DNA of 32,000 nt from Candidatus Saccharimonadota bacterium (GCF_964030745.1 NZ_OZ034918.1:960001-992000); one strand, 5' to 3'; positions 188 to 25,049 are shown, counted from the first letter of the stretch. Numbers and translations: made by a program. Notes: generated by a model from the sequence alone, not told the origin.

Positions 188-328
188 GGCCTCTTGCAAA
201 ACCTATTTCTAATGGCAATTTTGGTGTCGAAGCTTGTCTATGCTCCTCAAATACATTAAGTATTCTGCGGTGCTCAACTACACTTCTCCTAAAAATTGCT
301 CATCACAAAGTAGGTTTTGCAAGAGGCC
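188..328 (+). mobile_element. MITE-B, a 141-bp palindromic MITE nested inside the composite element
   Basis: Terminal inverted repeats are ggcctcttgcaaaacct.. and ..aggttttgcaagaggcc. It is flanked by the direct repeat TACTA (183-187 and 329-333). It is about 97% identical to the reverse complement of 11873-12012. Confidence 0.9.
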
Positions 329-517
329 TACTAGAGCGCCATTTTTTTATCGAAGGAGACGCGGGGCTGATAATGATAAGAAAAGCTATTGTGGCCGCAT
401 TCCTTTATCGGTGGCCACAAGTGCTGCGTATACCAATATTCCATGTAAAAAATGCTGTTCTACTTAATAGTCAATAATATTTATTTCTTAAGCCCGCGCT
501 ATTGCAAGGACAGATGC
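329..517 (-). mobile_element. arm C of the composite MITE (alternative partner arm to arm D)
   Basis: ctagagcgccattttttt-atcgaaggagacgcgg.. then diverges from arm D. The same arm recurs at 13436-13495 plus 13652-13755, and in degenerate form at 7661-7803. It ends in a TIR-like ..ggacagatgc. Confidence 0.75.
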
Positions 518-4282: not shown

Positions 4283-4424
4283 GTTTAATTTTTTTTCCTC
4301 TGCAATAGCCCTTAAAATTAGATTTTTTTACCTTTATTTCCTAATTTAAACCAGTCGATGTGCGCTATCTGCCAGTGGGTTTATGGAGTGCTTTGTGGAA
4401 TGGCTGGCGTAGCATTTAACCATA

Positions 4425-4564
4425 GACCTTCTGCAAAAGCTATTTGAGGTGAGCAATTTTTAGGAGCAGCGCAGTCGAGCACCGCAGCATACTAGATGTA
4501 TTTGAGGAGCATAGACAAGCTTCGACACCAAAATTGCCATTAGAAATAGCTTTTGCAGAAGGTC
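4425..4564 (-). mobile_element. MITE-B copy in the divergent intergenic region, ending 14 nt before the lpxB ATG
   Basis: gaccttctgcaaaagc ... gcttttgcagaaggtc TIRs, with an interior that is collinear with the other copies. The flanking pentamers are ccata / tcata. Confidence 0.9.
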
Positions 4565-4578
4565 TCATAAAAATACCC

Positions 4579-5691
4579 ATGCGTTATTATATTATTGCTG
4601 GTGAGCATTCGGGAGATATGCATGGGGCTGATTTGATTAGGCAGCTCAAAGCGATAGATGGCCATGCCGATTTTTGGGCTTGTGGAGGTGGCCAGATGTC
4701 CCAAGCTATAGGAGAGCCTTGTAGGGTAGATGGTTCAACGATGGCCTATATGGGGATAGATTTTTTAAAAAAGTGGTATACCCTATGGAAGTTGCTAAAA
4801 TTTTGTCAAAAAAGCTTACTTGACTATCGGCCTGATGTAGTCATTTTAATTGACTATAGTGGTTTCAATATGCGGCTGGCTCCATTTGCCAAGCGGCATG
4901 GATTTCAAGTACACTACTATATACCGCCCAAGATCTGGGCACATGGCCGGCAAAGAATAGAAAAGATCAAGCAGTATGTAGACCATGTTTGGTCCATATT
5001 GCCCTTTGAGGCAGCCTATTACCACGCTCAGGGCTATGATGCCATCGATTATGTAGGCAATCCGCTGGTACAAAGCGTAGCTGATTATGCTATCAACCCC
5101 GATTTTAGAGCAGCAAATAAACTCGATGAGCGGCCTATTGTAGCCTTATTGCCTGGTAGTAGATTGGATGAAATTCGGCGTCTATTGCCGCTTATGGTTG
5201 CGCAAGCGGAGCATTTTAAAGCCTATCAATTTGTAGTAGCTGGATTGCGTGCCATGCCAGCCAGCTTGTATCAAGCCATATGCCCACCTACTGTGCAACT
5301 GGTTTATGACCAAACCTACGACCTAATGGCTGTTGCACAAGCCGGGGTTATTGCTTCTGGAACAGCTAGTCTAGAAGCTGCTTTGTTTGACTTACCCCAA
5401 ATAGTGGTCTATAAGACCCATCCCTTCGCTTATTGGTTTTACAAATGGGTTGTCACGGTAAAACATATCTCTTTGGTCAATCTGCTTATGCATCACCCAG
5501 TTGTGCCAGAATTGATTCAATACCAACTCACTGGTAACAAGCTTTGTATTGCTTTACAGGATCTTTTATCAGGCCATGGCCGTGTCCAACAAAAAGAAGC
5601 CTATGCAGTGGTTCGCCGGTTACTAGGGCAACAACATGCTGCTGGAGCGGTAGCCAAGTGTATAGTAGCCCATACAAAACGGACGGTTTAA
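4579..5691 (+). CDS. lpxB: lipid-A-disaccharide synthase
   Basis: The LpxB-type N-terminus MRYYIIAGEHSGDMHGADLIRQLK is followed by full-length GT19-like sequence. I moved the start from the track's 4534 to the ATG at 4579, because the first 15 codons of the longer ORF lie inside a MITE-B copy (4425-4564). Confidence 0.9.
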   Translation: MRYYIIAGEHSGDMHGADLIRQLKAIDGHADFWACGGGQMSQAIGEPCRVDGSTMAYMGIDFLKKWYTLWKLLKFCQKSLLDYRPDVVILIDYSGFNMRLAPFAKRHGFQVHYYIPPKIWAHGRQRIEKIKQYVDHVWSILPFEAAYYHAQGYDAIDYVGNPLVQSVADYAINPDFRAANKLDERPIVALLPGSRLDEIRRLLPLMVAQAEHFKAYQFVVAGLRAMPASLYQAICPPTVQLVYDQTYDLMAVAQAGVIASGTASLEAALFDLPQIVVYKTHPFAYWFYKWVVTVKHISLVNLLMHHPVVPELIQYQLTGNKLCIALQDLLSGHGRVQQKEAYAVVRRLLGQQHAAGAVAKCIVAHTKRTV

Positions 5692-5703: not shown

Positions 5704-6132
5704 ATGGAAAAAAAAACAGGTAGGATTGTAGCGATAGATTATGGACTCAAGCGGGTGGGCATTGCTGTAACCGATCCTTTACAGGTCATTGCTATGCCTT
5801 TTACGACCATAGCGACTTCTACTTTGTTTTCTTTTTTAAAGGACTATTTGCAACAAGAAAAAGTCGTCAGCTTTGTAATGGGTATGCCCAAGGGGTTAAA
5901 TGGTCAGCCCTCTAAAATGAGTGGCGTAGTGGAAAGGGTTGGTGTGCAATTAAAAGCGGCATTTCCAGGGCAAACGCTCTATTACCAGGATGAGCGGTTT
6001 ACCTCTAAACTGGCCATGCAGGGGCTCTATCAAGCCGGCTATTCTAAAAAGGATAGGGGGGAGAAAGGGAATATAGATAAGGTAAGCGCTGCCATTATCT
6101 TGCAGTCTTTTTTAAATGTTTATGACCGCTGA
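5704..6132 (+). CDS. ruvX: YqgF/RuvX-family putative Holliday junction resolvase / pre-16S rRNA nuclease
   Basis: 142 aa, with RIVAIDYGLKRVGIAVTD at the N-terminus and DERFTS..A further on, both typical of YqgF. It lies 12 nt after the lpxB stop. Confidence 0.9.
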   Translation: MEKKTGRIVAIDYGLKRVGIAVTDPLQVIAMPFTTIATSTLFSFLKDYLQQEKVVSFVMGMPKGLNGQPSKMSGVVERVGVQLKAAFPGQTLYYQDERFTSKLAMQGLYQAGYSKKDRGEKGNIDKVSAAIILQSFLNVYDR

Positions 6133-6181
6133 TAAAGGCATTTAGCGCTGCAGCAAAAATAAGAAAACAGATGGTTTAAAG

Positions 6182-6270
6182 GTATCTATTCACGCCTGTG
6201 GCTCGGCCTCTTTATTTCTTTTGATAACCTTGTCTCTCCTTCAATAAAAAGTATGGCGTGGTAGTAGGAT
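6182..6270 (-). repeat. degenerate fragment of a MITE-A end
   Basis: It starts with the family TIR gtatctattcacgcctgtggct. Decayed and duplicated versions of ..ttatctccttcgataaaaagtctgg.. follow. Confidence 0.6.
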
Positions 6271-6478
6271 CCTTTAATATTTCGTTAGCATGCTCCCGGC
6301 ATTCCTTTATTTTCTCCATTATGAAGTCGCTATCCTTTGTCTCTTTTAGTTGTGTAGTAGTTGATATTTAATCTGACAGGCAGTAAAAATTTAGAATGTA
6401 TACATGTCAGTTAAATTTAGTTTGTTAGATGTGCTTTTAAGATACGTGATTTGATTATTTTTTTGAAAGACTAGTTTT

Positions 6479-7561
6479 TTACTTTCTTTTGCCATGTTGA
6501 GCTGAATTCTGCTTGCAATATTCTCTTTTTGCATCTTTTTCCCTATCCTGAATCTGGCTAAAGGTAGACATTAGGCTCTTGTCTGCTAAAATATTCTGGC
6601 GATCCTTAATATTAGTTGGCTTTACGGCACTTTTCGTCTCCTCCTCTTTGGGCCTCTTTTCGTCGTTGCTAGGATCACTCTTTGCTAGGTTACCTTGTGT
6701 ATCATTATTTTTTTGACAAGCTTTTAAACTTTTCTCCAGGTCCTTCATCAGTTCCTCCATCAGTTCCTCCATCAATTTTTTTCCGCATTCCTTAACACTG
6801 TTTTGTATGGTATCTTGGCATGCCGGAGGCATTTTCGCTAGGATTTCTGGATCCTTGAAGTAATCAGCAATGAGTTCCCATTTTGTATTGAACTGTTCAA
6901 TCGTTAAGTCGTTTAGTTGTTGACATGCAGGACCCGAAGCTATTTCGTGACACTTGTCTAGGAATTTATTAGCTTGCTTGTTCGTCTCACTAGTTTCAGG
7001 TGGAGGAGGATAATTGTCCAGGCAAGTAACAAGGTGCTCCAGTTCTTTAAGTGGTAGCGTAAGGCACCAATCCTTAACTTTCTGTTTAAAAGAGGAAAAA
7101 TGATCCCCCATTCGCTTTTTTAACTTATCATCTATAGAGTTAATATCTAGTTGTTCAGCGTACAAATTGTTCTCTTTATTCTGGATTTGAGTGGATGCGT
7201 TCATCCGATATATTAGACTCTTGATGCTAGCCATTATTGCCTTTTTATAACATATTTCTATTTTGCTATCAAACAGTGTTTTGAACTTGCCCTGCAATTC
7301 CTGCAATATTCTATTTTCTGTAGTCTCGTTCGGGTCCTTTTCCTGATTTTGGTTCGGATTATTGTTCTTCTCCTCTTCCGGATTACTTTTGTTCTCCTCT
7401 TCCGGATTACTTTTGTTCTCCTCGTTCAGGGTCTCTTTGGGCTTGGGGTATCCATATGATACGCTCTGGATCTTTTCCTTCTCACTAGACTTATCACAGC
7501 TAGCCACTACACTTACTACTGTAACCAAATAAACTAAAGTTGATTTATAGGAATATTGCAT
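6479..7561 (-). CDS. orphan lipoprotein, paralog family member 1 (360 aa)
   Basis: The signal peptide MQYSYKSTLVYLVTVVSVVASC has a lipobox-like Cys. It is followed by an acidic repeat linker (EENKSNPE x2-3), the module DWCLTLPLKELEHLV and the module KWELIADYF. All of these are shared with the neighbouring ORFs. Confidence 0.7.
   Translation of the reverse strand: MQYSYKSTLVYLVTVVSVVASCDKSSEKEKIQSVSYGYPKPKETLNEENKSNPEEENKSNPEEEKNNNPNQNQEKDPNETTENRILQELQGKFKTLFDSKIEICYKKAIMASIKSLIYRMNASTQIQNKENNLYAEQLDINSIDDKLKKRMGDHFSSFKQKVKDWCLTLPLKELEHLVTCLDNYPPPPETSETNKQANKFLDKCHEIASGPACQQLNDLTIEQFNTKWELIADYFKDPEILAKMPPACQDTIQNSVKECGKKLMEELMEELMKDLEKSLKACQKNNDTQGNLAKSDPSNDEKRPKEEETKSAVKPTNIKDRQNILADKSLMSTFSQIQDREKDAKREYCKQNSAQHGKRK
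6746..6775 (-). repeat. 12-bp in-frame tandem repeat (2.5 units) inside paralog 1
   Basis: catcagttcctc x2 plus a partial unit, encoding LMEELMEELM. Confidence 0.85.
7351..7422 (-). repeat. 24-bp in-frame tandem repeat (3 units, the first diverged) inside paralog 1
   Basis: cttccggattacttttgttctcct at 7375-7398 and 7399-7422, with a diverged unit at 7351-7374. It encodes (E)ENKSNPE repeats. Paralog 2 has one unit fewer at the homologous place (about 9141-9190). Confidence 0.85.
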
Positions 7562-7660
7562 ATAATTTTATACTTTAATATCAAAAGCGTACCTTTTTAA
7601 AAATTGTTATTTGGTTGGTAGAATTAAGTTTAAAGAGTTGTCATAAGGATTAATCTATTA

Positions 7661-7803
7661 TGGCCACAAAAAATGGCGTTCTATTTAATAATCAACAATA
7701 TTTATGTCCTAAGTTGACACCATTGTCCGAACAGATACAAATAATTTGATGCTCAATCAAATCAAGTCCCTAAGGGTATTGTGCTACATTCCTTTATCGG
7801 TGG
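7661..7803 (-). repeat. degenerate, internally deleted arm-C fragments abutting the stop codon of paralog 2
   Basis: tggccacaaaaaatggcgttctatttaataatcaacaatatttat..ccgaacagatac matches the arm-C end. gctacattcctttatcggtgg at about 7785-7803 matches the arm-C interior. Confidence 0.6.
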
Positions 7804-9321
7804 TTATGGTGTTTTGGGTGCTTGTTTGATATTGATAACTAGCTTAGCTATTGTGCTATTTAACTTCTCCTGATACCTCTTATGCGTCTCTTCATGTGTT
7901 GTTATGCTTTGCGTTAATTTTGGAGTAAATATTTTTATAGCCTGATCGGTGGTTTTGAAGCCATCCTGTTTTAGATTATACACCAGAAGCAGATCTTCTG
8001 GCTCTTTAAGATAACCGTAACCGAAAGCGCATTTAGCTATATCATTCGCATAGGCCTGCTCTATCTGTAATAGATTTCTTAATTCTGTGTTAGAAATCAA
8101 TGTAGAATTCTTGCCTTTTAGGGCATCGTTAACCAACTGCTTTACACATGCTATAATATAAGGCGGTTGATTGGGCTGCTTAGTATATAGATCAAACAGC
8201 CTCCCCTGCTCTTCATCGGTCAATTTATTATACCACCCTTTGATATGCTCTATATATTGCTTGCAGTAATCTATGAATTGTATAATATGAGTATTCTTAG
8301 ACTCCATTAAGACTATTGGGTTGCATGCCTGCTTTATTCTAAGTACTACCTCCTTCTCGGGGGATAACTGCTGTTTCGTGTTGAGCTCACTATTTGTTTC
8401 CGTTACGGCTTCATTGATGCGTTCGTTTACCGACTTTTTTAGCTCATCCATAGGGTAATTTTCTGTTCCAGCGAACATTTTTTCTGTTCGCTTTTTCTTC
8501 TCTTCTTCCCTTTGTTCCAATTCCTCCAATCTTTGGTTGGTTTTGTACAGATCATAGTCTTTAAAACCTGTTATTAAACTGATAATGTCTTTCTGGTAAT
8601 TTATTACACGTTGCTTGAATGTATCTTCAATTAGGCTCCTGCTCTTCTCTATATCATTAGCATTTAGAATCAAACTACTACATTTCAGCTCGCGATTTGT
8701 AACCATGTCTGCTATTAGGTTATTAAACTTCTCCCTTGTAGGAGGGAGCCAGTTAACTTGTAGTTCATTGCATTGGTTGTGAAGAACTGTTAATACCTTG
8801 TCGCCATTGTTTTCCGGCTTATATTCGTTCTCTAGGTAATCAGTTATCTGACGAAGTTCCTCAAAGGGCAATTCAAGCAGCAAAGCTTTAGAATGATCTT
8901 TAGCCTTATTAAGATAATCTGCTATATCCTGTATACCCCCTTGTTGTTCTAGGAAACTTTTAAGGTCATTATACTCCGCATGTTCTGTTGTTGTTAGCTG
9001 CTTACAGAACCAATCTATTACACCGTTCTTAGTAACAAGAATATTTGTTACTTTTTCATTCCATACTGTTTCAAACCGCTGTCTCAATTCCTCTAATGCT
9101 ACGTCTTCCTTATTTTCTTTTACTTCTTGTATGGGGGATGCTTCCGGATTATTGTTCTTCTCCTCTTCCGGATCACTTTTCTTCTCCTCGTTCAGGGTCT
9201 CTTTGGGCTTGGAGTATATATGTGCTATGCTCTTAACTGGCTCCTTCTTGCTACAGTTGTTAGCAGTCATGGTTACTACTGTCATCAAATAAACTAAGAG
9301 CGATTTGTAGGAATATTGCAT
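7804..9321 (-). CDS. orphan lipoprotein, paralog family member 2 (505 aa)
   Basis: The N-terminus MQYSYKSLLVYLMTVVTMTANNC and the linker KPKETLNEEKKSDPEEEKNNNP are near-identical to member 1. The same holds at DNA level, including about 70 nt upstream. It carries a diverged module, LLLELPFEELRQITDYLE. Confidence 0.7.
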   Translation of the reverse strand: MQYSYKSLLVYLMTVVTMTANNCSKKEPVKSIAHIYSKPKETLNEEKKSDPEEEKNNNPEASPIQEVKENKEDVALEELRQRFETVWNEKVTNILVTKNGVIDWFCKQLTTTEHAEYNDLKSFLEQQGGIQDIADYLNKAKDHSKALLLELPFEELRQITDYLENEYKPENNGDKVLTVLHNQCNELQVNWLPPTREKFNNLIADMVTNRELKCSSLILNANDIEKSRSLIEDTFKQRVINYQKDIISLITGFKDYDLYKTNQRLEELEQREEEKKKRTEKMFAGTENYPMDELKKSVNERINEAVTETNSELNTKQQLSPEKEVVLRIKQACNPIVLMESKNTHIIQFIDYCKQYIEHIKGWYNKLTDEEQGRLFDLYTKQPNQPPYIIACVKQLVNDALKGKNSTLISNTELRNLLQIEQAYANDIAKCAFGYGYLKEPEDLLLVYNLKQDGFKTTDQAIKIFTPKLTQSITTHEETHKRYQEKLNSTIAKLVINIKQAPKTP

Positions 9322-9559
9322 ATAATTTTATATTTTAAATTTAAAAGCCTAATGTTGTTAAAAACTGTTATTGGCTTATAAAAAAATTTTTGTTCAACCT
9401 TTTGGTTGCTTTGCCTTACAAGCAAAGTAAAATGACCACTGGCAATAAAGTGGCGCAGGTAACTTATGCCCTATCCAATTCAACAAAAAAGATTAGGCAA
9501 ATTTATAAAAATTAATAGAAAATACCTATTATATAGCTGATTTTCTTCGCGCAAGTGGG

Positions 9560-10033
9560 GTATCTATTCACGTCACTGGTTAATAATGAATTTTATCCTT
9601 TATAAAAAAAGTGGGCAAAAAATCAAGCCCTCGGTAAAAAGCTGGGGCATTTTTCTGCTATGGCCATAGCGTTGAGCGCATACGCTACGTTTGGCTGAAA
9701 AAGCAAGTGGCTAATCCATTACCAGCCGCAGCGTCTCCTTCGATAAAAAAATGGCGCTCTAGTAAAACACTGACACCTGAGCGATATATTTTTCAGCCCC
9801 CACCCACACCGCGGGTTATACCCAACAGTGTGGGTTATACCCAAAAAAGAAACTTCATAGAATATAGAATGAAGTTTCTTAGAAGCGGATTAGAAAATCG
9901 TCTGTTTGAAGCCCGCTTGCGGGCTGAGTTCACGATTTTCCCGCTGAAAAAGATATCGATTCAGCTATTTACTATCGGGCCAGACTTTTTATCGAAGGAG
10001 ATCAGGGGCCCAGCCACAGGCCTGAATAGATAC
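9560..10033 (+). mobile_element. composite MITE (module D + module A) carrying an 89-bp nested insert
   Basis: It is bounded by the inverted ends gtatctattcacg ... ctgaatagatac and is collinear with 11659-12197 apart from the nested inserts. No target duplication is detectable. Confidence 0.85.
9798..9886. mobile_element. small nested insert interrupting the hairpin core of the host MITE
   Basis: The canonical tttttcagc|ggattagaaaatcg is split by 89 bp. The insert contains the direct repeat gggttataccc(a) x2, the inverted cccacac/gtgtggg, and the hairpin agaaacttcat-agaatataga-atgaagtttct. Confidence 0.65.
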
Positions 10034-10061
10034 TTTTAAAGTACTACAGTTGGTTGAGTAG

Positions 10062-11339
10062 CTATTGCTGAATTTTGTTCAATTCATTTTCCCATTGTTT
10101 TAGCTTGCCTTGTATGCTGTTTGTGTCGTAACTATTAAGCTTGCTTTCTAGTGCATTTTGGAATTCTTTTGGTGTTTGTGCTAGAATTGTTTGCCTCCTC
10201 ATATAGGTAGCAAGCAGTTCCCACCTCTTTTTTAGCGCTTCTATTTGCATATATAAAAATGTCTTTTCTTTAGGTTCAGTAGAGGCTATATTTATTTTTG
10301 CACAATTGATTTCTAGTATCACACGGTTATGGTTCGGCGTAGATGCAGCGCAAGTTTCCAGTAAAGCAATCAGCCCTTCTAATTCGTTAGCAGGTAATCT
10401 AAGACACCAATCTTGAAGACTCTCTAGATAGGCAGTATAATAATCCGCTAGTTGCTGATAACCATCTAGTGATATATGGTATGCCTTGTATGCTTCATTG
10501 AATCCTGGCAGCTTATTTATGATCTCTTTGATGGTACGCATGACATCATCCTTATAGTTATAACCAATTTTTACATTGCTATTGTATACCATTTTGAACT
10601 TTTCCTGCAGTGGCTTTTGGAGTGCTTCGCTTAAATCTTTTATGCGCTTGTTGTCACCTTCAATATACTGTTGGTTTACCGCTGTTATTGATTGGTGAAA
10701 TTCTTGTGGTATTTCCTTTAGGGTTGCTGGATTGTTCCTGCAAGCAATAAGGAGCGGCACTCTGTCTTTTTCGTATTGATACCATACCTTTCGCAACTCT
10801 TGCCTTATATCGTCTCCAATTTCTTGCTGCAATTTCTGCAATTCCTGCAACTCCTGGCTGATATCGTATTCGGTTGATTGCGGTCCAATAAGATACCCAC
10901 TTAGAAAGTTTTTTAATCCACGCTCACCCTTTTCTATGCTAGCAACCACTAGCTCCAATTGCTTATAGGGCAATCTAAGGCACCATTCCTTGAACTGCTG
11001 TAGAAAAAGCCCATATAGTTCTACTAGTTGTGTTACCTCAGGGAGATTATTCTTAAGGATAAGACCGCATAATTGGTTGCGCAATTGATTTTGCCGTTCT
11101 ATGGATAATTTGGGTATGGTTACCATATATTCAGTTAGGATATTTAGTATGTTCTGTTGAGTATTAGTCATTTTTTGTTCCCATAGAACTTTGACCTTTT
11201 CCTGTGCTAGATGCTGTTGTGCAGCTTCGCTTGGGTTACTTTCTGCAATTTCCATGGATGAAGTTTCATCTCCATCTTTACAACTTGTAAATAAGATTGT
11301 GGACAAACAGAGCACAGTCGCTGTATAAGAATGTTTCAT
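10062..11339 (-). CDS. orphan lipoprotein, paralog family member 3 (425 aa, internally duplicated)
   Basis: Signal peptide MKHSYTATVLCLSTILFTSC followed by KDGDE. The family module occurs twice (EWCLRLPYKQLELVV and DWCLRLPANELEGLI). The C-terminal RWELLATYM..TPKEFQNALESKL resembles member 1. Confidence 0.7.
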   Translation of the reverse strand: MKHSYTATVLCLSTILFTSCKDGDETSSMEIAESNPSEAAQQHLAQEKVKVLWEQKMTNTQQNILNILTEYMVTIPKLSIERQNQLRNQLCGLILKNNLPEVTQLVELYGLFLQQFKEWCLRLPYKQLELVVASIEKGERGLKNFLSGYLIGPQSTEYDISQELQELQKLQQEIGDDIRQELRKVWYQYEKDRVPLLIACRNNPATLKEIPQEFHQSITAVNQQYIEGDNKRIKDLSEALQKPLQEKFKMVYNSNVKIGYNYKDDVMRTIKEIINKLPGFNEAYKAYHISLDGYQQLADYYTAYLESLQDWCLRLPANELEGLIALLETCAASTPNHNRVILEINCAKINIASTEPKEKTFLYMQIEALKKRWELLATYMRRQTILAQTPKEFQNALESKLNSYDTNSIQGKLKQWENELNKIQQ

Positions 11340-11516
11340 ATAATTTTATAATATCAAAAAAGCTAACATAGATACTACTGTAGAGGTGGTTATTGCTTTA
11401 TTTAAAAAAATGCATGAGCATGCACTACTATATAATTAGCTTCTTTTTGATCATATTTGATGCAAACAAAAGACATGATCGGCGATTCCTTAAGCTAAGG
11501 CTCCGACAAATTTATA

Positions 11517-11554
11517 AAAAAATGCATAGAAGATATATCTTCTATGCATTTTTT
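11517..11554. terminator. perfect 38-bp palindrome with A-tract/T-tract arms (bidirectional terminator-like hairpin)
   Basis: aaaaaatgcatagaagata|tatcttctatgcatttttt. It lies between the MITE at 11659 and the start of paralog 3 (11339). Confidence 0.5.
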
Positions 11555-11658
11555 CGATCTGATACTGATCTTTTTGAGTACTTATCGATTATATGTAGCT
11601 TTATACACTATAAAAATCAAGCAAGTTACCAAGCTGATTGCATAAGCTGTAATAATTC

Positions 11659-12197
11659 GTATCTATTCACGTAACTGGTTAATAATGAATTGTATTTCAC
11701 TTTATTCTTGATAAAAAAGTGGACAAAAAATCAAGTTCTGGGCAAAAAGTTGGGGCATTTTACTGCTATGGCCTTAGCGTTAAACGCATACGCTACGTTT
11801 GGCTGAAAAAGCAAGTGGCTAATCCATTGCCAGCCGCCGCGTCTCCTGCGATAAAAAAATGGCGCTCTAGTAGACCTCTTGCAAAACCTACTTTGTGATG
11901 AGCAATTTTTAGGAGAAGTGTAGTCGAGCACCGCAGAATACTTAATGTATTTGAGGAGCATAGACAAGCTTCGACACCAAAATTGCCATTAGAAATAGGT
12001 TTGCAAGAGGTCTAGTAAAACACTAACTCCTGAGCGATATCTTTTTCAGCGGATTAGAAAATCGTCTGTTTGAAGCCCGCTTGCGGGCTGAGTTCACGAT
12101 TTTCCCGCTGAAAAATATATCGATTCAGCTATTTACTATCGGGCCAGACTTTTTATCGAAGGAGATAAGGCGGCCAGCCAGAGGCATGAATAGATAC
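11659..12197 (+). mobile_element. composite MITE (module D + module A) with a nested MITE-B and a perfect 8-bp target-site duplication
   Basis: The ends are gtatctattcacg ... catgaatagatac. The direct repeat aataattc lies immediately outside both ends (11651-11658 and 12198-12205). Confidence 0.92.
11873..12012 (-). mobile_element. MITE-B nested in the composite MITE
   Basis: gacctcttgcaaaacc ... ggtttgcaagaggtc. It is flanked by the direct repeat TAGTA (11868-11872 and 12013-12017). The uninterrupted host sequence gcgctcTAGTAaaacac is seen in copies at 9765, 24510 and 24825. Confidence 0.92.
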
Positions 12198-12573
12198 AAT
12201 AATTCGATGGTTTTGTCTTAGCTATGTTAGCTAGCATCAGTGATCGATACTACATACGCTCCAATAGAGAAAGTGCTTTTGGGGGAAGAATGTAGCAAAG
12301 CTTGCACTACAACAAATTCAAGCCCAAGCCTACCATATGGAGTTATTGAATTACCCTTATATAGATGAAGTAGTGGAATGCGGTGTTGCCTTTTCAGAGA
12401 AATCGGTTGTAGCGGCTTACGCTACTTATGACCTGCTTCATAAGCAGGCTGGAGTGATTATGTTAACTGCTCAATATAGCCAGGAAGAGTGGGAGGAGTA
12501 AATCCATATGTTCTAATTGATTCTATGTTGATCAGAAAGTCAGCCTGGCTGACGTGTAGTTCGGATCGATTTT

Positions 12574-13125
12574 CTATTGAATTTTTTTCATCATTCTGTC
12601 TATGGCTTTGTTTAGCATTGTCTTTTTGGCCTTCTTACGCACTTCTTCACGGTCTTTCTCTGGCATTTCCAGAGGAAATATTGTTAGGAGATCTTCTTGC
12701 ATTTCCTCTGGAAATCCCTCTAAGCTTCCTGGTTGTCGTATCCACTTAGCAAAATATTGCCAAAGTATCTCAACTAGTTTAACTTGGCATTTAACCGGTT
12801 CTTCTATGTTGTTAACATATGAATCATCAGCTTGCCGCCGCTCGTTGCGCTTCTGATTGCACTTATTATATAGTTCTATTAAAAACTCTTTATTGCTTTC
12901 GAAAAACTTCTCTGCTACTTGACGCCACTGCTGATCTTCTTTTTCTTTGAAACACTCTACGATTGTTGATTGTAGTTCCTGTAGCTTCTCTTCGTTACTA
13001 TGAGTTTCACTTTGTGCATCCTGCTGCTTATCAATATGATTAGTGCCAACTGCACACCTAGCTCCCATACATGTTACGAGACACAATAAGGTGGCTTTAT
13101 AGAAATATTGTATGCGACTTTTCAT
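12574..13125 (-). CDS. orphan lipoprotein, short and distant paralog family member 4 (183 aa)
   Basis: The signal peptide ..QYFYKATLLCLVTCMGARC is homologous to those of members 1-3. The body is rich in K/E/Q, and ILWQYFAKW..FPEEMQEDL resembles the C-terminal module of the family. Confidence 0.55.
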   Translation of the reverse strand: MKSRIQYFYKATLLCLVTCMGARCAVGTNHIDKQQDAQSETHSNEEKLQELQSTIVECFKEKEDQQWRQVAEKFFESNKEFLIELYNKCNQKRNERRQADDSYVNNIEEPVKCQVKLVEILWQYFAKWIRQPGSLEGFPEEMQEDLLTIFPLEMPEKDREEVRKKAKKTMLNKAIDRMMKKIQ

Positions 13126-13246
13126 TTTTTATTTTTGACTATTATGTTTCAACAATAGTTAAAAATTTTATAAAAGGCAATTGCTAGTAAGTGCACGTTC
13201 AATGGCGTTAACTTAAGGAATTTGTCTTATTTTTACCTGATTATAA

Positions 13247-13805
13247 GTATCTATTCACGCTTGTGTCTGTGCCCCTTATCTCCTTCGATAAAAAGTCTGG
13301 CCCGATAGTAAATAGCTGAATCGATATCTTTTTCAGCGGGAAAATCGTGAACTCAGCCCGCAAGCGGGCTTCAAACAGACGATTTTCTAATCCGCTGAAA
13401 AAGATATCGCTCAACTGTTAGCGTTTTACTAGAGCGCCATTTTTTATCGAAGGAGACGCGGGGCTGGTAATGATAAGAAAAGCTATTGTGGCCGCCGATA
13501 AAGGAATGCGGCGCTTCAGTAAAGCGGAAGTCTTTAAACAATCTATTGTTCAGCGGATTAGAAAAACAGCCTGTTTGCAGCCCACGAAGTGGGCAAGTTC
13601 TGTTTTTCCCGCTGAACAATAGATTGTTTCATTGCCTTTACTGCGCGCCAAATCTTTTATCGGTGGCCATAAGTGCTGCGTATACCAATACTCCATGTAA
13701 AAAATGCTGTTCTATTTAATAGTCAATAATATTTATCTCTTAAGCCCGCGCCATTGAGTGCACGTTCAATACCTTTACTGCGCGCCCAATCTCTTATCGC
13801 CAGTC
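13247..13805 (-). mobile_element. composite MITE (module A + arm C, reverse orientation) with a nested MITE-E and a rearranged distal end
   Basis: It starts with gtatctattcacgc. The A arm is near-identical to 1-187. Arm C is interrupted at 13496-13651. A partial re-duplication (cctttactgcgcgcc.aatct.ttatcg) lies at 13771-13800. Confidence 0.8.
13496..13651. mobile_element. MITE-E, a ~156-bp element nested in arm C
   Basis: It splits the canonical gtggccgc|attcctttatcggtggcc. Its imperfect TIRs are ggcgcttcagtaaagc / gctttactgcgcgcc-like. Its central hairpin, ttgttcagcggattagaaaaacagcctgtttgcagcccacgaagtgggcaagttctgtttttcccgctgaacaa, is related to the MITE-A core. Confidence 0.7.
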
Positions 13806-13948
13806 ATACACGGGGAGGTATATGGACTACCCATATTTCAAAATAGCAGGTTAAGCTGAAATAAATTCATTATTTTGCACCATTTATTTCAAGATACCGC
13901 TCTATACTGAATAAGTTATTTAGCCAAATTACCCAAGCAACAAAGATC

Positions 13949-15073
13949 ATGCGCACAATAGGTATATATCAGTCATTGGGCGGCCTAGATTATTTTATGC
14001 CCCATCCATTGCCACCTAAAGATCCGCCCCTAACATTTGATGCAGCTATCATGGTGTTATATGGGGAGGCTAGTTTTGCCTTAGGGCAACTCAATGAAAT
14101 GAGTCAGCGTTTGCCCGATATCAATCGATTTATAAAAGCTTATGTCATCAAGGAGGCACTCTTGTCTTCTGCTATTGAGGGGATTCATACTACATTTATA
14201 GATGTCTTAACCCATTCTTTAAATCCATCACAGCCAGACAAGAATGTTCAACTTGTGCTGAACTATACCAAAGCTTTGGATAAGGCATTAACGATGTTAA
14301 CCAAGGAAGGGTTCCCGTTGGCTACTCGGGTTATTTTGGCTGCACATAGGCTGCTGCTCTCCAACGGAGAGGGAGATAAAGCTGCTCCAGGTTGCTACCG
14401 TAAGCAAGCAGTACAGGTTGGCAGTCTGATTCCACCAATTGCCTCAGAAGTGCCCAATCTTATGGCTGCGTTAGAAGCGTATATCCATGAAGTCGATGGC
14501 ATACCAGCGCTTATTAAAGCAGGGTTGGTTCATGTACAATTTGAAATGATTCACCCCTTTTTAGATGGAAATGGACGAATAGGAAGATTATTGATTGTAT
14601 TGATGTTAATGGATCAAGATCTCCTACATTTACCTATTCTCTATCCTTCCTATTATTTTAAAAAATACCATTTGGACTACTACCAAAAGTTAGATCGAGT
14701 GCGAACAGCTGGTGATTTTGAAGGTTGGATGGTCTTTTATTTAAAAGCTATAAGAGATAGTGCCAGAGATGGCTATACAAGAGCCAAGGCAATAGAGCAA
14801 TTGGAAATCAGCTTACAAAAGACTATTCAACAAGATGCAAGATTTGTAAAAATCAGAGAAACAGCAGCTACTGTTTTAAACTTTTTGTTTATACAACCTA
14901 TTACTACGATTGTTGAAATGAGCCAAGCTACAGATAAAGCATACAACACAATCAGTAATATATTTAAGCCATTTGTCGCATTGGGTATTCTAGTGGAAGA
15001 AACCGTGTATAAAAGGAATAAAATCTATCGCTTTCAACCCTATCTTACACTTTTGGAAAAAGAATATGTCTAG
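13949..15073 (+). CDS. Fic family protein (predicted AMP transferase with N-terminal auto-inhibitory motif and a C-terminal extension, possibly a winged helix)
   Basis: The canonical Fic motif HPFLDGNGRIGR (HxFx[DE]GNGRxxR) lies at 14552-14587. An upstream [ST]xxxE[GN] inhibitory motif, SSAIEG, lies at 14165-14182. The length of about 374 aa is typical of Fic_N + Fic + wHTH proteins. Confidence 0.9.
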   Translation: MRTIGIYQSLGGLDYFMPHPLPPKDPPLTFDAAIMVLYGEASFALGQLNEMSQRLPDINRFIKAYVIKEALLSSAIEGIHTTFIDVLTHSLNPSQPDKNVQLVLNYTKALDKALTMLTKEGFPLATRVILAAHRLLLSNGEGDKAAPGCYRKQAVQVGSLIPPIASEVPNLMAALEAYIHEVDGIPALIKAGLVHVQFEMIHPFLDGNGRIGRLLIVLMLMDQDLLHLPILYPSYYFKKYHLDYYQKLDRVRTAGDFEGWMVFYLKAIRDSARDGYTRAKAIEQLEISLQKTIQQDARFVKIRETAATVLNFLFIQPITTIVEMSQATDKAYNTISNIFKPFVALGILVEETVYKRNKIYRFQPYLTLLEKEYV

Positions 15074-15087
15074 TTTATGATTTAAGT

Positions 15088-15146
15088 GAGCATAGACCAG
15101 CTTCGATACCAGCATGGCTATTATGAAATGGGTTTTGAAAAAGGTC
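15088..15146 (-). repeat. half copy of MITE-B between the Fic gene and mscL
   Basis: gagcatagaccagcttcgatacc..ttgaaaaaggtc aligns with the second half of the 11873-12012 copy, about 75% identical by eye. Confidence 0.6.
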
Positions 15147-15229
15147 TAATGTTGTATCTATGATGCAATACCACTATATTCCATCTAGTTGGTTGAAAGT
15201 GACATAATCACACTAATTGTAATCGGGTC

Positions 15230-15589
15230 ATGAGCTTTATAAAAGAATTTAAAAAATTTGCTATGAGGGGCAATGTAGTAGATTTATCTGTAGGGGTTAT
15301 TATGGGTGGTGCATTTGGTAAGATTGTTACTTCTATAGTAGAAGATTTGGTTATGCCTATGATCAATCCATTATTGATAACCGAGCGGAATTGGCAATCC
15401 ATACAAATTGGTCCTGGTATTAAAATTGGCCATTTTGTTGCAGCTGTGCTCAACTTTTTAGTAATTAGCTTGATCATATTTGCCATGATACGGCTCATAC
15501 ATAGACTGAAAAAATCAGAGGCAAAAGCTGAAGTTCCTACCGTTACTGAAAAGCTTTTGATAGAGATAAGGGATGCACTAAAAAAATAG
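15230..15589 (+). CDS. mscL: large-conductance mechanosensitive channel
   Basis: 119 aa. MSFIKEFKKFAMRGNVVDLSVGVIMGGAFGKIV is the MscL N-terminus and TM1 signature. A second TM segment and a charged C-terminus follow. Confidence 0.9.
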   Translation: MSFIKEFKKFAMRGNVVDLSVGVIMGGAFGKIVTSIVEDLVMPMINPLLITERNWQSIQIGPGIKIGHFVAAVLNFLVISLIIFAMIRLIHRLKKSEAKAEVPTVTEKLLIEIRDALKK

Positions 15590-18643: not shown

Positions 18644-20761
18644 ATGGTTTATAAAAAAATTGGAGATAAAATTCCTTCTTTATCCAGCCTGCTCTTGGCT
18701 GGAGCATTGTTTACTGCTGGTAAATGTAAGAGTGGTGACCCTGACTCTGGGGTTAAGGACGATCCGAGTATGTTAGAAGGTGATACTTCTAAGCCTGCAG
18801 GCAAACAAGAGGAAGCTGATAATACTGGTCAAAAGCTTAGTTCGCATCTTGCAGAGGCAGTTCAAGCGTTTAAAAGGGCCCTTATCAATTGTTCAGGTTT
18901 AAGTCACTTAGCAGGTGAGAAAAAACCATTGTCTTATGATCTAGTTGACTTTAAAGGCAAGGATAATAAGGAGATGGCTGAAAAAGCTAAGGGTCTATTG
19001 ATTAGTCTCCATGATGAGAATGTTGCCGCATTGGCTTATCCTAAGGGCTTGAAGAGTGCTTTTGCTGCTCTACAGGAGCTTGTTAAGAAGAAGGCCTATG
19101 CTAAATATCCTTATGCATATGCTCTGTCTATCCGAGAAATTCCTGTACACTGGGGGGGGCTACATGGTATTTATTCGGATATGGTGAAAAAAATTACCAG
19201 TTGTATGCCACAGGATAGCTTGAGTTTTTTAATCGAAAAAGTCGATGCATTAATGAAAAGTGCAAATGAAATTTTTGTGTCTTCTAAAGAATTTGCAGAT
19301 AATCCAACAAAAAAACATGAACTCCTTAAAGGTCCTAGATTTGTTAGGTTGTTGAATGGTAGAAGTAGACAAGGCAGTTCTTATCCTGAAGTTCCTATCT
19401 TATTCAACAAGCCGACATTATCCAAGTTGTGGGTTAAGTTTAAACCAGAAGAGTTTCCTAAACCGGATCTAGACAATGCTCGTGCAGGTGATGTTTTAAA
19501 TAAAAGAGGGGCTGCTATACTAACATGGAAAGTAGAAGGTGGTGAGAATCAAGATACTATGCTTCCAGTTGTCGCTATTGCTAATCACATGAATGGTGCT
19601 GATAATGTATTGAAGCAAAAGTTCAAGCATGTTGCTGGTACCGATACGGATATTGTACCAAATGACTGCTTTGAAACGATTGCTACCCCTACTAATAACT
19701 CTGGATTTAACTCACAAGCTGCTATAGTGAAAGAGAATATAAGTTTTGGTCAGCTTTTCTTTTCGATTTTTAAGGGGAATTCGAAGGGAGATTGCGTTCT
19801 CCTAGAACCTTCTTCTCACGCAGACGACACTGTAAAGGTTACTACCGATAATGAAAAATACCAGTATTGGATAGATGCATCTCAGAAAGAGTTAGGTTAT
19901 TTTGCTGATTGTTTGGGTAAACATATTAATTCGAATAATGAACTAAAAGAGTTATTTGTTATTCCTGATGTTAGTCGCCTTGAGGATAACCTACTAAATG
20001 GTATATTCCCTGATAAGCCAGCAAATAGTGGCTTCGGCGCTGTACCAGCAACACAGGATGTAAAGGATTCAACTGGAGCAGTTGTAGTTCAGGGTAAGCC
20101 AGGAACACTGGGTCAAAGTAGTCAATCCGTGCAGTTGTTGGAGAATATTTTGAGTGTTTTCTCGAGCAATCAAATAACTACTGGAAGCCCAGCTCAATTG
20201 TTGCAAAAAATTGGCGAATTGGCGAAGCTGGATCAGAATTCACAAGCACTAGGGGCAGATTTGACTTTTGAGCAGCGAGTCTGCATTGGCCTTGCTAAGA
20301 ATATCCAATCAGCATCATTCCTTACTGATACTAGCGATGGATCAGCAAAAAATATTGTAGATAATGTAACTGCCTTCATTCAAGCGGCATCAAGCTATGC
20401 AATTCTGGTATCTAAATCAGGGACCTATGCTCCTACTCAAAATACTAAATTGATCGCCGCAGCTATTCATAAATTTGATGAGCAACTAAAGATAAAGAAT
20501 AATAGTGCTTCTGTTTCTTATCACGACCTTGAAAAGGCTGCTACAGGTTTTCAAATTGAGCAAGTTCGTCAATGTTTCATAAGTGATTGCAAAGCACTTA
20601 AAGGTGTTATTGCAGCTCGTGTGGAACCTCTTATTGAGAGACCTCTTAATCAGAAAGTAAATTATATAGCTGAGCTCCCTGATGTACAGGGGCTTTCTGA
20701 AGCTTATTATTCAAATCTTGATGAAGTAAGGAAAAATTATCATAATAAAGAAGGGAAGTAA
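18644..20761 (+). CDS. orphan 705-aa secreted protein, possibly a lipoprotein
   Basis: A long uninterrupted ORF with a hydrophobic N-terminus (SLSSLLLAGALFTAGKC) followed by a charged linker. A good intrinsic terminator follows it. I recognise no domain. Confidence 0.7.
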   Translation: MVYKKIGDKIPSLSSLLLAGALFTAGKCKSGDPDSGVKDDPSMLEGDTSKPAGKQEEADNTGQKLSSHLAEAVQAFKRALINCSGLSHLAGEKKPLSYDLVDFKGKDNKEMAEKAKGLLISLHDENVAALAYPKGLKSAFAALQELVKKKAYAKYPYAYALSIREIPVHWGGLHGIYSDMVKKITSCMPQDSLSFLIEKVDALMKSANEIFVSSKEFADNPTKKHELLKGPRFVRLLNGRSRQGSSYPEVPILFNKPTLSKLWVKFKPEEFPKPDLDNARAGDVLNKRGAAILTWKVEGGENQDTMLPVVAIANHMNGADNVLKQKFKHVAGTDTDIVPNDCFETIATPTNNSGFNSQAAIVKENISFGQLFFSIFKGNSKGDCVLLEPSSHADDTVKVTTDNEKYQYWIDASQKELGYFADCLGKHINSNNELKELFVIPDVSRLEDNLLNGIFPDKPANSGFGAVPATQDVKDSTGAVVVQGKPGTLGQSSQSVQLLENILSVFSSNQITTGSPAQLLQKIGELAKLDQNSQALGADLTFEQRVCIGLAKNIQSASFLTDTSDGSAKNIVDNVTAFIQAASSYAILVSKSGTYAPTQNTKLIAAAIHKFDEQLKIKNNSASVSYHDLEKAATGFQIEQVRQCFISDCKALKGVIAARVEPLIERPLNQKVNYIAELPDVQGLSEAYYSNLDEVRKNYHNKEGK

Positions 20762-23706: not shown

Positions 23707-23723
23707 AACCCAACTACCACTCC

Positions 23724-24695: not shown

Positions 24696-24729
24696 ACCAC
24701 TCCAGCTTATGTCCGCCGATAGAAAAATG

Positions 24730-25010: not shown

Positions 25011-25049
25011 GATTTGTGTAGTGGGGCCAGTAAGTAATATGCGGATCCG

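What the first reader, a model, noticed from the sequence alone, without database searches (positions are those of the whole stretch)
6479..13125. Tandem family of four orphan lipoproteins, each separated by MITEs, inserted between housekeeping genes
Four same-strand ORFs of 360, 505, 425 and 183 aa open with clearly homologous signal peptides: MQYSYKSTLVYLVT.., MQYSYKSLLVYLMT.., MKHSYTATVLCLST.. and ..QYFYKATLLCLVT... Each peptide ends in a lipobox-like Cys. A charged K/E/N/P linker follows (for example CKDGDE), which is weakly reminiscent of the acidic Bacteroidota surface-lipoprotein export signal.

The bodies are rich in K/E/Q and probably helical. They share a recurring module, W-C-L-x-L-P-x-x-E-L-E-x-L, seen as DWCLTLPLKELEHLV, EWCLRLPYKQLELVV and DWCLRLPANELEGLI; the 505-aa member has a diverged form, LLLELPFEELRQI. 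A second module appears as KWELIADYF, RWELLATYM and ILWQYFAKW.

I do not recognise this as any characterised family. The block lies between ruvX and Fic/mscL/uvrA, and every spacer is occupied by mobile repeats. That is the signature of a rapidly turning-over accessory locus. The working hypothesis is a diversifying surface or host-interface protein family.
Basis: partly seen in the sequence, partly recalled or inferred. Interest (0 to 1): 0.7.

Follow-up and report, generated by a model that had tools for sequence, protein, structure and literature searches.

The report
Cardinium-only exported helical protein family
Four neighbouring genes in an insect endosymbiont (Cardinium of the beetle Philonthus spinipes) encode a previously undescribed, Cardinium-only family of probably exported, all-helical proteins in a strain-variable insert, so they are reasonable but untested candidates for host contact.

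Summary
The four minus-strand ORFs (360, 505, 425 and 183 aa) are real. They share a homologous N-terminal signal-peptide cassette and a ~170-aa all-helical module built around W-C-L-x-L-P-x-x-E-L. A has one module, C has two, B has one plus a degenerate one, and D has a truncated one.

The window comes from the Cardinium endosymbiont of Philonthus spinipes (icPhiSpin1). All four proteins are annotated "hypothetical".

An exhaustive profile search of 1.84 billion protein representatives found eight proteins. The named ones are all Cardinium, and the unnamed ones match this locus at DNA level. There is no hit in Pfam, NCBIfam, PADLOC or PHROGs, no PDB sequence hit, and no Foldseek PDB/BFVD hit for a confident model (pLDDT 84).

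The ~9-kb block (four genes, MITEs and a SoFic-type Fic) replaces ~180 bp between ruvX and mscL in a related Cardinium.

A near-identical strain differs in three ways:
- C lacks one module.
- B's body is swapped after codon ~96.
- dN/dS is about 1.

- Only A and C have a canonical lipobox.
- None fits the Bacteroidota surface-export signal.
- The A–B spacer holds only a repeat fragment.
- Fic belongs to the insert.
- The family is unrelated to the cEper1 cytoplasmic-incompatibility candidates CAHE_p0043 and CAHE_p0044.

Function is inferred, not shown.

The parts
6479..7561 (-). Gene A (360 aa, WP_342265229.1). Layout: signal peptide with canonical lipobox VVAS|C (nt 7496-7561); K/E/N/P linker with a 24-nt tandem repeat (7355-7438, 2.9 copies, NKSNPEEE); one helical module (aa 81-260, nt 6782-7321); K/E-rich tail.
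   Evidence: structure model of aa 81-260 (pLDDT 84, pTM 0.77, nine helices)
7804..9321 (-). Gene B (505 aa, WP_342265230.1). Layout: signal peptide ending ANN-C (non-canonical); linker with two copies of the 24-nt repeat (9141-9189); module 1 (aa 71-245, nt 8587-9111, motif LLLELPFEEL); a weak degenerate second module (aa ~260-431, nt 8029-8544; 10.4-10.9 bits).
10062..11339 (-). Gene C (425 aa, WP_342265231.1). Layout: signal peptide with lipobox LFTS|C followed by KDGDE; two full modules (aa 36-191, nt 10767-11234; aa 236-405, nt 10125-10634).
12574..13125 (-). Gene D (183 aa from Met1; PGAP aa from Met20, WP_342265234.1). It has a homologous N-terminus but a non-canonical Cys context (LVTC/GARC). 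Its single module is truncated (aa 43-183, 140 of 171 profile positions), and its family membership is the weakest of the four.
7526..7572 (-). Conserved 5' cassette: 11 nt upstream, the ATG and the first 36 nt of the coding sequence. Copies lie at 7526-7572, 9286-9332, 11304-11350 and 13078-13124. A and B share ATAAAATTATATGCAATATTCCTAYAAA.
   Evidence: 0 matches expected by chance
9560..10033 (.). MITE-type element in the B–C spacer (474 nt; terminal inverted repeats GTATCTATTCAsG; no real ORF). The listed 110-aa ORF at 9707-10039 lies inside it.
11659..12197 (.). MITE-type element in the C–D spacer (539 nt). It has a nested ~140-nt second repeat at 11864-12010 and a perfect 8-bp target-site duplication, AATAATTC.
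13241..13808 (.). Inverted, truncated copy of the same element (13247-13472) plus further dispersed repeat pieces in the D–Fic spacer.
6175..6227 (.). Solo end fragment (53 nt) of the MITE, just past ruvX at the left edge of the inserted block.
7668..7725 (.). The only repeat fragment in the A–B spacer (46-58 nt, 78-87% identical to 447-504 and 13699-13756).
6117..15148 (.). Inserted (indel) block relative to Cardinium of Nabis limbatus. There, ruvX and mscL are 256 bp apart, and ~178 bp of unmatched spacer corresponds to this ~9 kb.
13949..15073 (+). Fic-domain gene of the SoFic type, inside the same inserted block. GC is 39%, like A-D and unlike the 44.6-45.8% of polA, lpxB, uvrA and alaS.
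   Evidence: PADLOC SoFic, 5.6e-99, full length

Best explanation
These are four paralogues of a Cardinium-restricted family of Sec-exported proteins. At least A and C are probably lipid-anchored.

Each protein has three parts: a conserved N-terminal signal cassette, a low-complexity K/E/N/P linker that varies by a 24-nt tandem repeat, and one or two copies of a ~170-aa nine-helix module.

The array lies in a low-GC, MITE-ridden ~9-kb accessory block, next to a SoFic-type Fic gene, inserted between ruvX and mscL.

The genes change by three routes. Recombination swaps the module-encoding body behind the conserved 5' end. Unequal crossing-over between modules adds or removes a module. Amino-acid substitutions accumulate with little constraint.

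The most likely role is as envelope or surface proteins, or released proteins, of an intracellular symbiont. In that position they would meet host components and be free, or driven, to diversify.

Shown here: homology, modular anatomy, taxonomic restriction, the insertion, and between-strain structural variation. Inferred: export, lipidation, location and host contact.
For: Family and module:
- Pairwise and leave-one-out profile significance.
- Domain counts per protein.
- With a 10-sequence alignment, AlphaFold2 gives pLDDT 84 and pTM 0.77 for A residues 81-260, against pLDDT 37 for C as a single sequence.

Restriction:
- The profile search of 1,835,955,588 representatives gave 8 hits. Four are the window proteins or near-identical forms. 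P0006 is from Cardinium of Brevipalpus californicus and P0007 from Cardinium of Dermatophagoides farinae. Two more come from sequencing-run assemblies (strain table in PMC12342168).
- No known family or fold was found.

Export signal:
- All eight members have K/R in the first 2-10 residues, a 12-residue hydrophobic core (Kyte-Doolittle 1.8-2.7) and a Cys at residues 19-24.
- A and C match PS51257.
- Orthologues of an unrelated Cardinium protein (window 18644-20761) show SGC, GGC, SNC and GKC at the equivalent site. So N or K before the Cys recurs in this genus.
- Cardinium has the Sec pathway (PMC12342168). SignalP 6 predicts SPII lipoproteins among abundant cEper1 proteins (bioRxiv 10.64898/2026.06.05.730497).

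Accessory and variable:
- lpxB-ruvX-mscL-uvrA is contiguous in L001.
- Members in other Cardinium sit at other chromosomal sites.
- GC is 37.6-39.0% against 44.6-45.8% in flanking housekeeping genes.

Comparison with the strain in run SRR15069915:
- The D region is 99.74% identical, and both differences within D are nonsynonymous.
- C has a 600-nt in-frame one-module indel and 13 nonsynonymous versus 2 synonymous changes. An omega of 0.3 or less is rejected at p=0.009.
- For B, the upstream region is 96.8% identical. Codons 1-95 give dS 0.037. Codons 111-186 give dS 0.28 and dN 0.35. Beyond that the two sequences have diverged too far to align reliably.
- The gene after B is different.

Two MITE copies, one of them in the C–D spacer, have 8-bp target-site duplications.
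Against: - B and D, and P0005-P0008, lack a canonical lipobox.
- NCBI's pipeline starts D after the putative signal peptide.
- No SignalP or LipoP run was possible, and lgt/lspA were not checked in this genome.
- None of A, B or C fits the published Bacteroidota surface export signal, so surface exposure has no sequence support.
- dN/dS near 1 is equally what decaying genes show.
- There are no expression data for any member. The accession numbers appear in no searchable paper.
- The structure model rests on only 10 sequences.
- D's membership outside the N-terminus is marginal.
Confidence: 0.5

Rival explanations
1. Functionless remnants. The array would be a set of duplicated orphan genes under relaxed selection in a degenerating, repeat-ridden endosymbiont genome, on the way to becoming pseudogenes, with no present role.
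For: - dN/dS is about 1.2-1.7 between strains and not significantly above 1.
- D is truncated and only marginally recognisable.
- P0008 is a 135-aa stump.
- Modules are lost without apparent consequence.
- Lipoboxes are degenerate in most members.
- The region is full of MITEs.
Against: - ORFs of 360-505 codons stay open in DNA of 38-39% GC.
- The one-module indel in C is exactly in frame (600 nt).
- The module is recognisable between Cardinium of a beetle and of mites. UvrA across Cardinium loci is about 80-86% identical, against only ~20% for the module. The shared pattern of residues is coherent enough for a confident structure prediction.
- The N-terminal cassette is conserved across strains while the bodies diverge.
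Confidence: 0.2
2. Internal envelope proteins without host contact. They would be periplasmic or inner-leaflet lipoproteins with a bacterial role, such as envelope structure or immunity proteins against periplasm-acting toxins, which also occur as tandem paralogue arrays.
For: - They have signal peptides with a Cys but no match to the Bacteroidota surface export signal C-X-K-(D/E)2-X.
- They form a tandem array of paralogues next to a defence-type gene, SoFic.
- Cys residues co-occur in the module: the W-C Cys and a second Cys about 40 alignment columns downstream (~30-38 residues) are both present in A, C2 and P0007. A disulfide, and hence an oxidising compartment, is an inference from this.
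Against: - There is no match to any PADLOC, Pfam or NCBIfam immunity or envelope family.
- No cognate toxin gene is adjacent.
- Housekeeping envelope proteins would be expected at conserved sites and under purifying selection. These genes are strain-variable and sit at different sites in different genomes.
Confidence: 0.2
3. Dedicated host-manipulation effectors, for example cytoplasmic-incompatibility factors or cargo of the T6SS-iv contractile system, acting inside host cells.
For: - In Cardinium cEper1 the current CI candidates are small orphan predicted lipoproteins found in gene pairs near mobile elements (bioRxiv 10.64898/2026.06.05.730497).
- This family is orphan, arrayed and variable, and lies next to mobile elements.
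Against: - This was tested directly. The family profile finds nothing on the first 50 kb of plasmid pCher, which includes the 312-aa ORF taken to be CAHE_p0043 and its neighbour taken to be CAHE_p0044 (best E 0.048 on an unrelated transposase-like ORF).
- No cEper1 protein appeared in the exhaustive search.
- A hydrophobic Sec-type N-terminus does not suggest contractile-injection cargo.
- No reproductive phenotype is known for icPhiSpin1 (PMC12342168).
Confidence: 0.05

Closest known systems
Paralogous helical surface-lipoprotein families of host-restricted bacteria (e.g. Borrelia burgdorferi paralogous family 12, BBH37, PDB 8s2f; CspZ)
   Same: - Lineage-specific multi-copy families of small all-helical proteins behind lipoprotein-type signal peptides.
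- No enzymatic motifs, and variable between strains.
- BBH37 was nominally the top Foldseek hit.
   Different: The structural match is not significant (E 0.16, TM 0.18) and there is no sequence similarity. The Borrelia families are plasmid-borne with canonical lipoboxes, whereas these genes are chromosomal and only two of four have a canonical lipobox.
Variable surface lipoprotein gene arrays of Mycoplasma (Vsp/Vlp type; from general knowledge, not tested here)
   Same: - Tandem genes share a highly conserved 5' end and signal peptide.
- Mature parts are divergent.
- In-frame tandem repeats change copy number.
   Different: No phase-variation switch was found: no homopolymer of 8 or more, and no invertible promoter arrangement. 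The bodies are folded helical modules rather than mainly repeats, and no silent cassettes were seen in the window.
Cardinium cEper1 CI-effector candidates CAHE_0406 / CAHE_p0043 (predicted SPII lipoproteins; bioRxiv 10.64898/2026.06.05.730497)
   Same: Same genus; orphan proteins; predicted lipoprotein-type signal peptides; neighbouring-gene arrangement close to mobile elements; patchy distribution among strains. For CAHE_p0044, as for gene D, the signal peptide was missed by the annotated start.
   Different: There is no detectable homology. The family profile does not hit the pCher ORFs at 39006-39941 (312 aa) or 40015-40725. CAHE_0406 is only 60 aa.
Bacteroidota surface lipoproteins with the lipoprotein export signal (Lauber et al. 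2016, PMC5080379)
   Same: Bacteroidota host; Cys followed by a charged K/D/E stretch. C reads C-K-D-G-D-E.
   Different: The optimum is C-X-K-(D/E)2-X, with K at +3 and D/E at +4 to +6, and D/E never at +3. A (CDKSSE), B (CSKKEP) and C (CKDGDE) do not fit.

Membership tests
Bacterial lipoprotein (Sec/SPII substrate) | Positively charged n-region followed by a hydrophobic h-region | tested here: met
   All four window proteins and four relatives have K/R within residues 2-10 and a best 12-residue hydropathy of 1.8-2.7.
Bacterial lipoprotein (Sec/SPII substrate) | Lipobox before the Cys (PROSITE PS51257 pattern; classical [LVI][ASTVI][GAS]C) | tested here: inconclusive
   Met by A (VVASC) and C (LFTSC). 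Not met by B (ANNC), D (LVTC/GARC) or P0005-P0008. Orthologues of another Cardinium protein alternate SGC, GGC, SNC and GKC at this site, so the genus may tolerate N or K at -1, or lipidation may be decaying.
Bacterial lipoprotein (Sec/SPII substrate) | Lgt/LspA machinery present, and experimental lipidation | not testable with these tools
The literature reports SPII predictions in cEper1 only.
Bacteroidota surface-exposed lipoprotein (LES-dependent) | C-X-K-(D/E)2-X immediately after the lipidated Cys | tested here: not met
   A is CDKSSE, B is CSKKEP and C is CKDGDE, compared with the positional rules in PMC5080379.
T9SS substrate | C-terminal sorting domain (Pfam Por_Secre_tail-type models) | tested here: not met
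   A Pfam scan at E up to 1 gives no such hit for any of the four.
Any curated protein family (Pfam-A, NCBIfam, PADLOC, PHROGs) or solved structure | Score above the family's curated cut-off, or a significant sequence or fold match | tested here: not met
   The best Pfam hits are 11-19 bits, below cut-offs of 22-30. NCBIfam, PADLOC and PHROGs give nothing significant. The PDB profile search gives best E 0.0028 on a 25-residue stretch. Foldseek gives no hit at E 0.001 or better in PDB or BFVD.
MITE (miniature inverted-repeat transposable element), for the spacer repeats | Short, non-coding, multi-copy, with terminal inverted repeats and a target-site duplication | tested here: met
   Elements of 474-972 nt carry the ends GTATCTATTCAsG in inverted orientation. 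At least 7 copies or fragments lie in 32 kb. There are perfect 8-bp duplications, AATAATTC (11659-12197) and ACCACTCC (23724-24695). The 9560-10033 copy has no duplication. The A–B and ruvX–A spacers hold only fragments.
Phase- or antigenic-variation lipoprotein system | A switch (homopolymer or dinucleotide tract, invertible promoter, or silent cassettes) | tested here: not met
   There is no A/T run of 8 or more, no (TA)5 or longer, and only one G/C run of 6 or more (GGGGGG at 6056-6061, within ruvX) in 6000-15300. The window has no extra module copies outside the four genes. The promoter scan is at chance level.
Cardinium CI-candidate families (CAHE_p0043 / CAHE_p0044) | Sequence homology | tested here: not met
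   The family HMMs were run against all ORFs in the first 50 kb of pCher. There was no hit on the ORFs at 39006-39941 or 40015-40725.

The most novel reading that the evidence does not exclude
The family is a recombination-driven diversification system for the host-facing coat of an intracellular, maternally inherited symbiont. A conserved promoter and signal cassette would be kept constant, while helical modules behind it are swapped, duplicated and deleted between paralogues and strains. The modules would be a new fold that binds host targets and contributes to host range or reproductive manipulation.
Probability: 0.1. Interest if true: 0.65.

Novelty: new member of a known kind. Interest (0 to 1): 0.4.

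Why it matters
Cardinium infects a large share of arthropods, and its host-interaction proteins are almost unknown. The first candidate incompatibility factors, reported in 2026, are orphan predicted lipoproteins.

This work defines another genus-restricted family with an export signal. It supplies a usable profile (alignment A3) and a confident domain model. It also gives direct evidence that the locus differs structurally between nearly identical strains.

That makes these genes reasonable candidates for localisation and yeast or insect-cell expression screens. They could also serve as strain-typing markers.

On its own this remains an orphan family without a demonstrated function, which is common in endosymbiont genomes.

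Tried and rejected
- The search for homologous proteins with C425 and with the 10-sequence family alignment returned nothing. It missed even proteins that the listing of cluster members shows are in that collection. These negatives are therefore uninformative and were not used.
- Exact look-ups of ruvX and A found nothing on record.
- The genome-contig scan with A found no relative.
- A metagenome scan for the 5' cassette found nothing.
- Single-sequence AlphaFold2 of C425 was unusable (pLDDT 37).
- P0007 is 304 aa and from D. farinae Cardinium, so I tested whether it is the reported homologue of CAHE_p0043 (312 aa). tblastn against plasmids gave no match, and the HMM gave no hit on pCher. Rejected.
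- The sigma-70 promoter scan was at chance level (31 sites against 29.1 expected).
- Rfam and tRNA scans of the window were empty.
- Literature searches for the accession numbers found nothing.
Full report
**What is there**

The region holds four minus-strand ORFs at exactly the reported coordinates:
- A: 6479-7561, 360 aa
- B: 7804-9321, 505 aa
- C: 10062-11339, 425 aa
- D: 12574-13125, 183 aa

The flanking genes were identified with Pfam. Upstream lie polA, an orphan gene, lpxB (4534-5691) and ruvX (5704-6132). Downstream lie a Fic gene (13949-15073), mscL (15230-15589), uvrA (15605-18409), a 705-aa orphan and alaS.

**Source organism**

UvrA is 80-86% identical to Cardinium endosymbionts and 70% to an Amoebophilaceae MAG. 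An exact look-up then showed that A, B, C and D are WP_342265229.1, WP_342265230.1, WP_342265231.1 and WP_342265234.1. All are "hypothetical protein" of the Cardinium endosymbiont of Philonthus spinipes, on a 1,093,165-bp contig. A 2025 review lists this closed Darwin Tree of Life genome as icPhiSpin1 (PMC12342168).

**Are the four proteins related beyond chance?**

Yes for A, B and C. D is weaker.

- By blastp, A–B gives 2e-21 over the first ~100 residues.
- A–C gives 2e-15 (A 28-256 against C 179-401) and 1e-5 (A 74-182 against C 33-136). C therefore contains the shared region twice.
- I cut out the shared region and ran leave-one-out profile tests against 300 shuffles of each target.
- Scores were A 70.9 bits, C second copy 37.5, C first copy 30.6 and B 13.3. 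None of the 300 shuffles reached these values.
- D scored 7.3 bits, reached by 2 of 300 shuffles.

D's membership rests mainly on two things. Its N-terminus and 5' DNA are homologous to the others, and its WIRQ...FPEEMQEDLL stretch aligns with the W-C-L-x-L-P region.

D's ILWQYFAKW does not belong with it.

The resulting architectures:
- A: signal, linker, one module, K/E-rich tail
- B: signal, linker, one module, one degenerate module (10.4-10.9 bits)
- C: signal, short linker, two modules
- D: signal, short linker, one truncated module

**The N-terminus**

A 47-nt DNA family covers 11 nt upstream, the ATG and the first 12 codons of all four genes. Copies B, C and D are 89%, 77% and 66% identical to A. 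A and B share a 28-mer that is not expected by chance.

All family members have K/R early, a hydrophobic core and a Cys at residues 19-24. Only A (VVASC) and C (LFTSC) match the PROSITE lipobox pattern. B reads ANNC and D reads LVTC/GARC. The relatives read NMRC/CTC, GSKC and SIC/GKC/CGC. PGAP starts D at Met20 and so omits the signal.

One observation softens the failures. The unrelated 705-aa orphan downstream of uvrA has orthologues in five Cardinium loci. At the equivalent position they read SGC, GGC or SNC (in three loci), and the window copy reads GKC. Asn or Lys before the Cys is therefore a recurring Cardinium feature. It could reflect tolerance or decay of lipidation, and I cannot tell which.

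The suggested resemblance to the Bacteroidota lipoprotein export signal does not hold. The published optimum is C-X-K-(D/E)2-X, with D/E absent from +3 (PMC5080379). A is CDKSSE, B is CSKKEP and C is CKDGDE.

**Linker**

The linker carries an in-frame 24-nt tandem repeat encoding NKSNPEEE. A has 2.9 copies and B has 2.

**Is it a known family?**

No.
- Pfam, NCBIfam, PADLOC and PHROGs give only sub-threshold noise.
- A profile search of PDB sequences gives nothing meaningful.
- A profile of the module was read against 1.84 billion representatives and found eight proteins. Four are the window's own or near-identical forms. The others are P0005 and P0008 (sequencing-run assemblies), P0006 and P0007.
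- P0006 is WP_243517493.1, with two modules, from Cardinium of Brevipalpus californicus. P0007 is WP_144086465.1, with one module, from Cardinium of Dermatophagoides farinae.
- The family is therefore restricted to Cardinium as far as HMMER can see.

In the mite symbionts the members sit at other chromosomal places. One lies between a radical-SAM gene and gidB, the other between thioredoxin and tilS.

With the 10-sequence alignment, AlphaFold2 models A residues 81-260 as nine helices (pLDDT 84, pTM 0.77). The single-sequence model of C was useless (pLDDT 37). In this model the W-C-L-x-L-P motif forms the end of helix 4, a turn, and the Pro cap of helix 5.

**Is the block accessory?**

Yes. In Cardinium of Nabis limbatus, lpxB, ruvX, mscL and uvrA are contiguous. 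DNA homology to the window stops at 6116 and resumes at 15149. About 9 kb here therefore corresponds to ~178 bp there.

The block includes the Fic gene, which is a full-length SoFic-type protein (PADLOC 5.6e-99).

GC of A-D and Fic is 37.6-39.3%, against 44.6-45.8% for polA, lpxB, uvrA and alaS.

**The repeats**

They are real MITE-type elements. They carry inverted ends GTATCTATTCAsG and have no ORFs. At least seven copies or fragments lie in 32 kb. Two copies have perfect 8-bp target-site duplications: AATAATTC at 11659-12197 and ACCACTCC at 23724-24695.

They fill the B–C, C–D and D–Fic spacers. The A–B and ruvX–A spacers have only fragments of 46-58 nt. The same elements are scattered across the whole window, so they are a genome-wide feature rather than a mark of this locus.

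**Turnover**

Three contigs from one sequencing run (SRR15069915) come from a very close strain.
- The D region is 99.74% identical over 1145 nt. Both differences inside D are nonsynonymous.
- C is present as a 225-aa form that lacks exactly 200 codons, which is one module plus the inter-module stretch. The junction lies in a short similar stretch (SEA/SEV). There are 13 nonsynonymous and 2 synonymous differences.
- For B, the upstream 249 nt are 96.8% identical and codons 1-95 are nearly identical (dS 0.037, dN 0.022). From about codon 96, both dS (0.28) and dN (0.35) jump, and further on the sequences have diverged too far to align reliably.
- The gene after B is a different lipoprotein, with an LIGC lipobox and an HEFGH motif.

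The simultaneous jump of dS and dN marks a recombination breakpoint behind a conserved 5' cassette. dN/dS is about 1.2-1.7. That is not significantly above 1, but values of 0.3 or less are rejected (p = 0.009 and 2e-7).

No phase-variation switch was found: no homopolymer tracts and no silent cassettes.

**Interpretation**

The anatomy has four elements: a conserved export cassette, a repeat linker, folded helical modules in variable number, and a strain-variable accessory site. The taxonomic restriction adds to this picture.

Together they best fit an exported, probably membrane-anchored protein family of an intracellular symbiont. Such a family would be free, or driven, to diversify, and host contact is the most plausible reason. 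That last step is inference.

The main rivals are envelope proteins with no host contact and genes drifting toward loss. dN/dS near 1 fits the drift rival. Against it are the long open frames, the in-frame module indel, the conserved N-terminus, and a module recognisable between beetle and mite symbionts.

A 2026 preprint reports that the cytoplasmic-incompatibility candidates of Cardinium cEper1 are orphan predicted lipoproteins. I tested for a link. The family profiles do not hit the pCher ORFs taken to be CAHE_p0043 and CAHE_p0044. No cEper1 protein appeared in the exhaustive search. The parallel is one of kind, not of family.

**Verdict**

The "accessory, rapidly turning-over, uncharacterised family" reading is supported. 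The "surface or host-interface lipoprotein" reading remains a reasonable hypothesis.

It is a new, genus-restricted member of a familiar kind: arrayed, fast-evolving exported orphan proteins of host-restricted bacteria. Interest is moderate.

Noticed in passing
window 13949-15073 (+): The Fic gene inside the inserted block is a full-length SoFic-type protein (PADLOC SoFic, 5.6e-99, profile positions 6-360 of 361). It has an intact HPFLDGNGRIGR active-site motif and an N-terminal SSAIEG stretch that fits the (S/T)xxxE(G/N) inhibitory motif. A phage-defence-type gene is odd in a genus reported to lack prophages.
   Followed up: partly
window 18644-20761 (+); L001 13055-, L002 13047-, L003 13034-, L004 11950-, L005 13029-: A 705-aa orphan directly downstream of uvrA is syntenic in five other Cardinium loci at only 24-45% identity. 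It has a lipoprotein-type N-terminus whose residues before the Cys vary between strains (SGC, GGC, SNC, GKC). It might correspond to the widely distributed, abundant predicted lipoprotein CAHE_0757 described for cEper1, but this was not tested.
   Followed up: partly
L086 1668-2756 (run SRR15069915): In the closely related strain, the gene after the B-like gene is a 362-aa protein with a canonical LIGC lipobox and an HEFGH zinc-peptidase motif (weak Pfam Peptidase_Mx1 hit, E 8e-4). It has no counterpart in the window.
   Followed up: partly
window 6182 (+) and 10033 (-): Two copies of the same MITE end (the GCCTGTGGCT-type end) face each other in inverted orientation and bracket genes A and B. 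This could mark a composite mobilisable unit or be coincidence.
   Followed up: no
window 12-504, 4423-4572, 15080-15150, 23723-25013, 29378-29534, 31149-31288: Further copies and nested mosaics of at least two dispersed repeat families occupy many intergenic spaces of the window. The 110-aa ORF at 9707-10039 and similar short ORFs lie inside such repeats and are probably spurious.
   Followed up: partly
L002 1-10000 (Cardinium of Oedothorax gibbosus): In the relative with the closest UvrA, only a C-terminal mscL remnant (residues 69-119) lies upstream of uvrA. It is preceded by transposase-like ORFs, and lpxB/ruvX are not within 10 kb, so this backbone site is rearranged there.
   Followed up: no
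window 25050-25856 (-) and 31275-31964 (-): The 268-aa ORF matches only the N-terminal starch-synthase domain. The 229-aa RmlD-like ORF matches profile positions 66-285 of 287. Both may be truncated genes next to repeat elements.
   Followed up: no
tool behaviour (against 27, 29): The word-indexed protein search returned nothing for queries whose identical or near-identical sequences are demonstrably in the same collection. For this genome its negatives carry no weight.
   Followed up: yes
family N-termini (window 7544-7561, 9304-9321, 11322-11339; P0006-P0008): The first six residues, M-x-[YH]-[SA]-Y-K, and the DNA just upstream are better conserved across Cardinium strains than the mature proteins (~20% identity). 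That is unusual for a signal peptide and is unexplained. It could be a translation-initiation constraint or a specific targeting signal.
   Followed up: no
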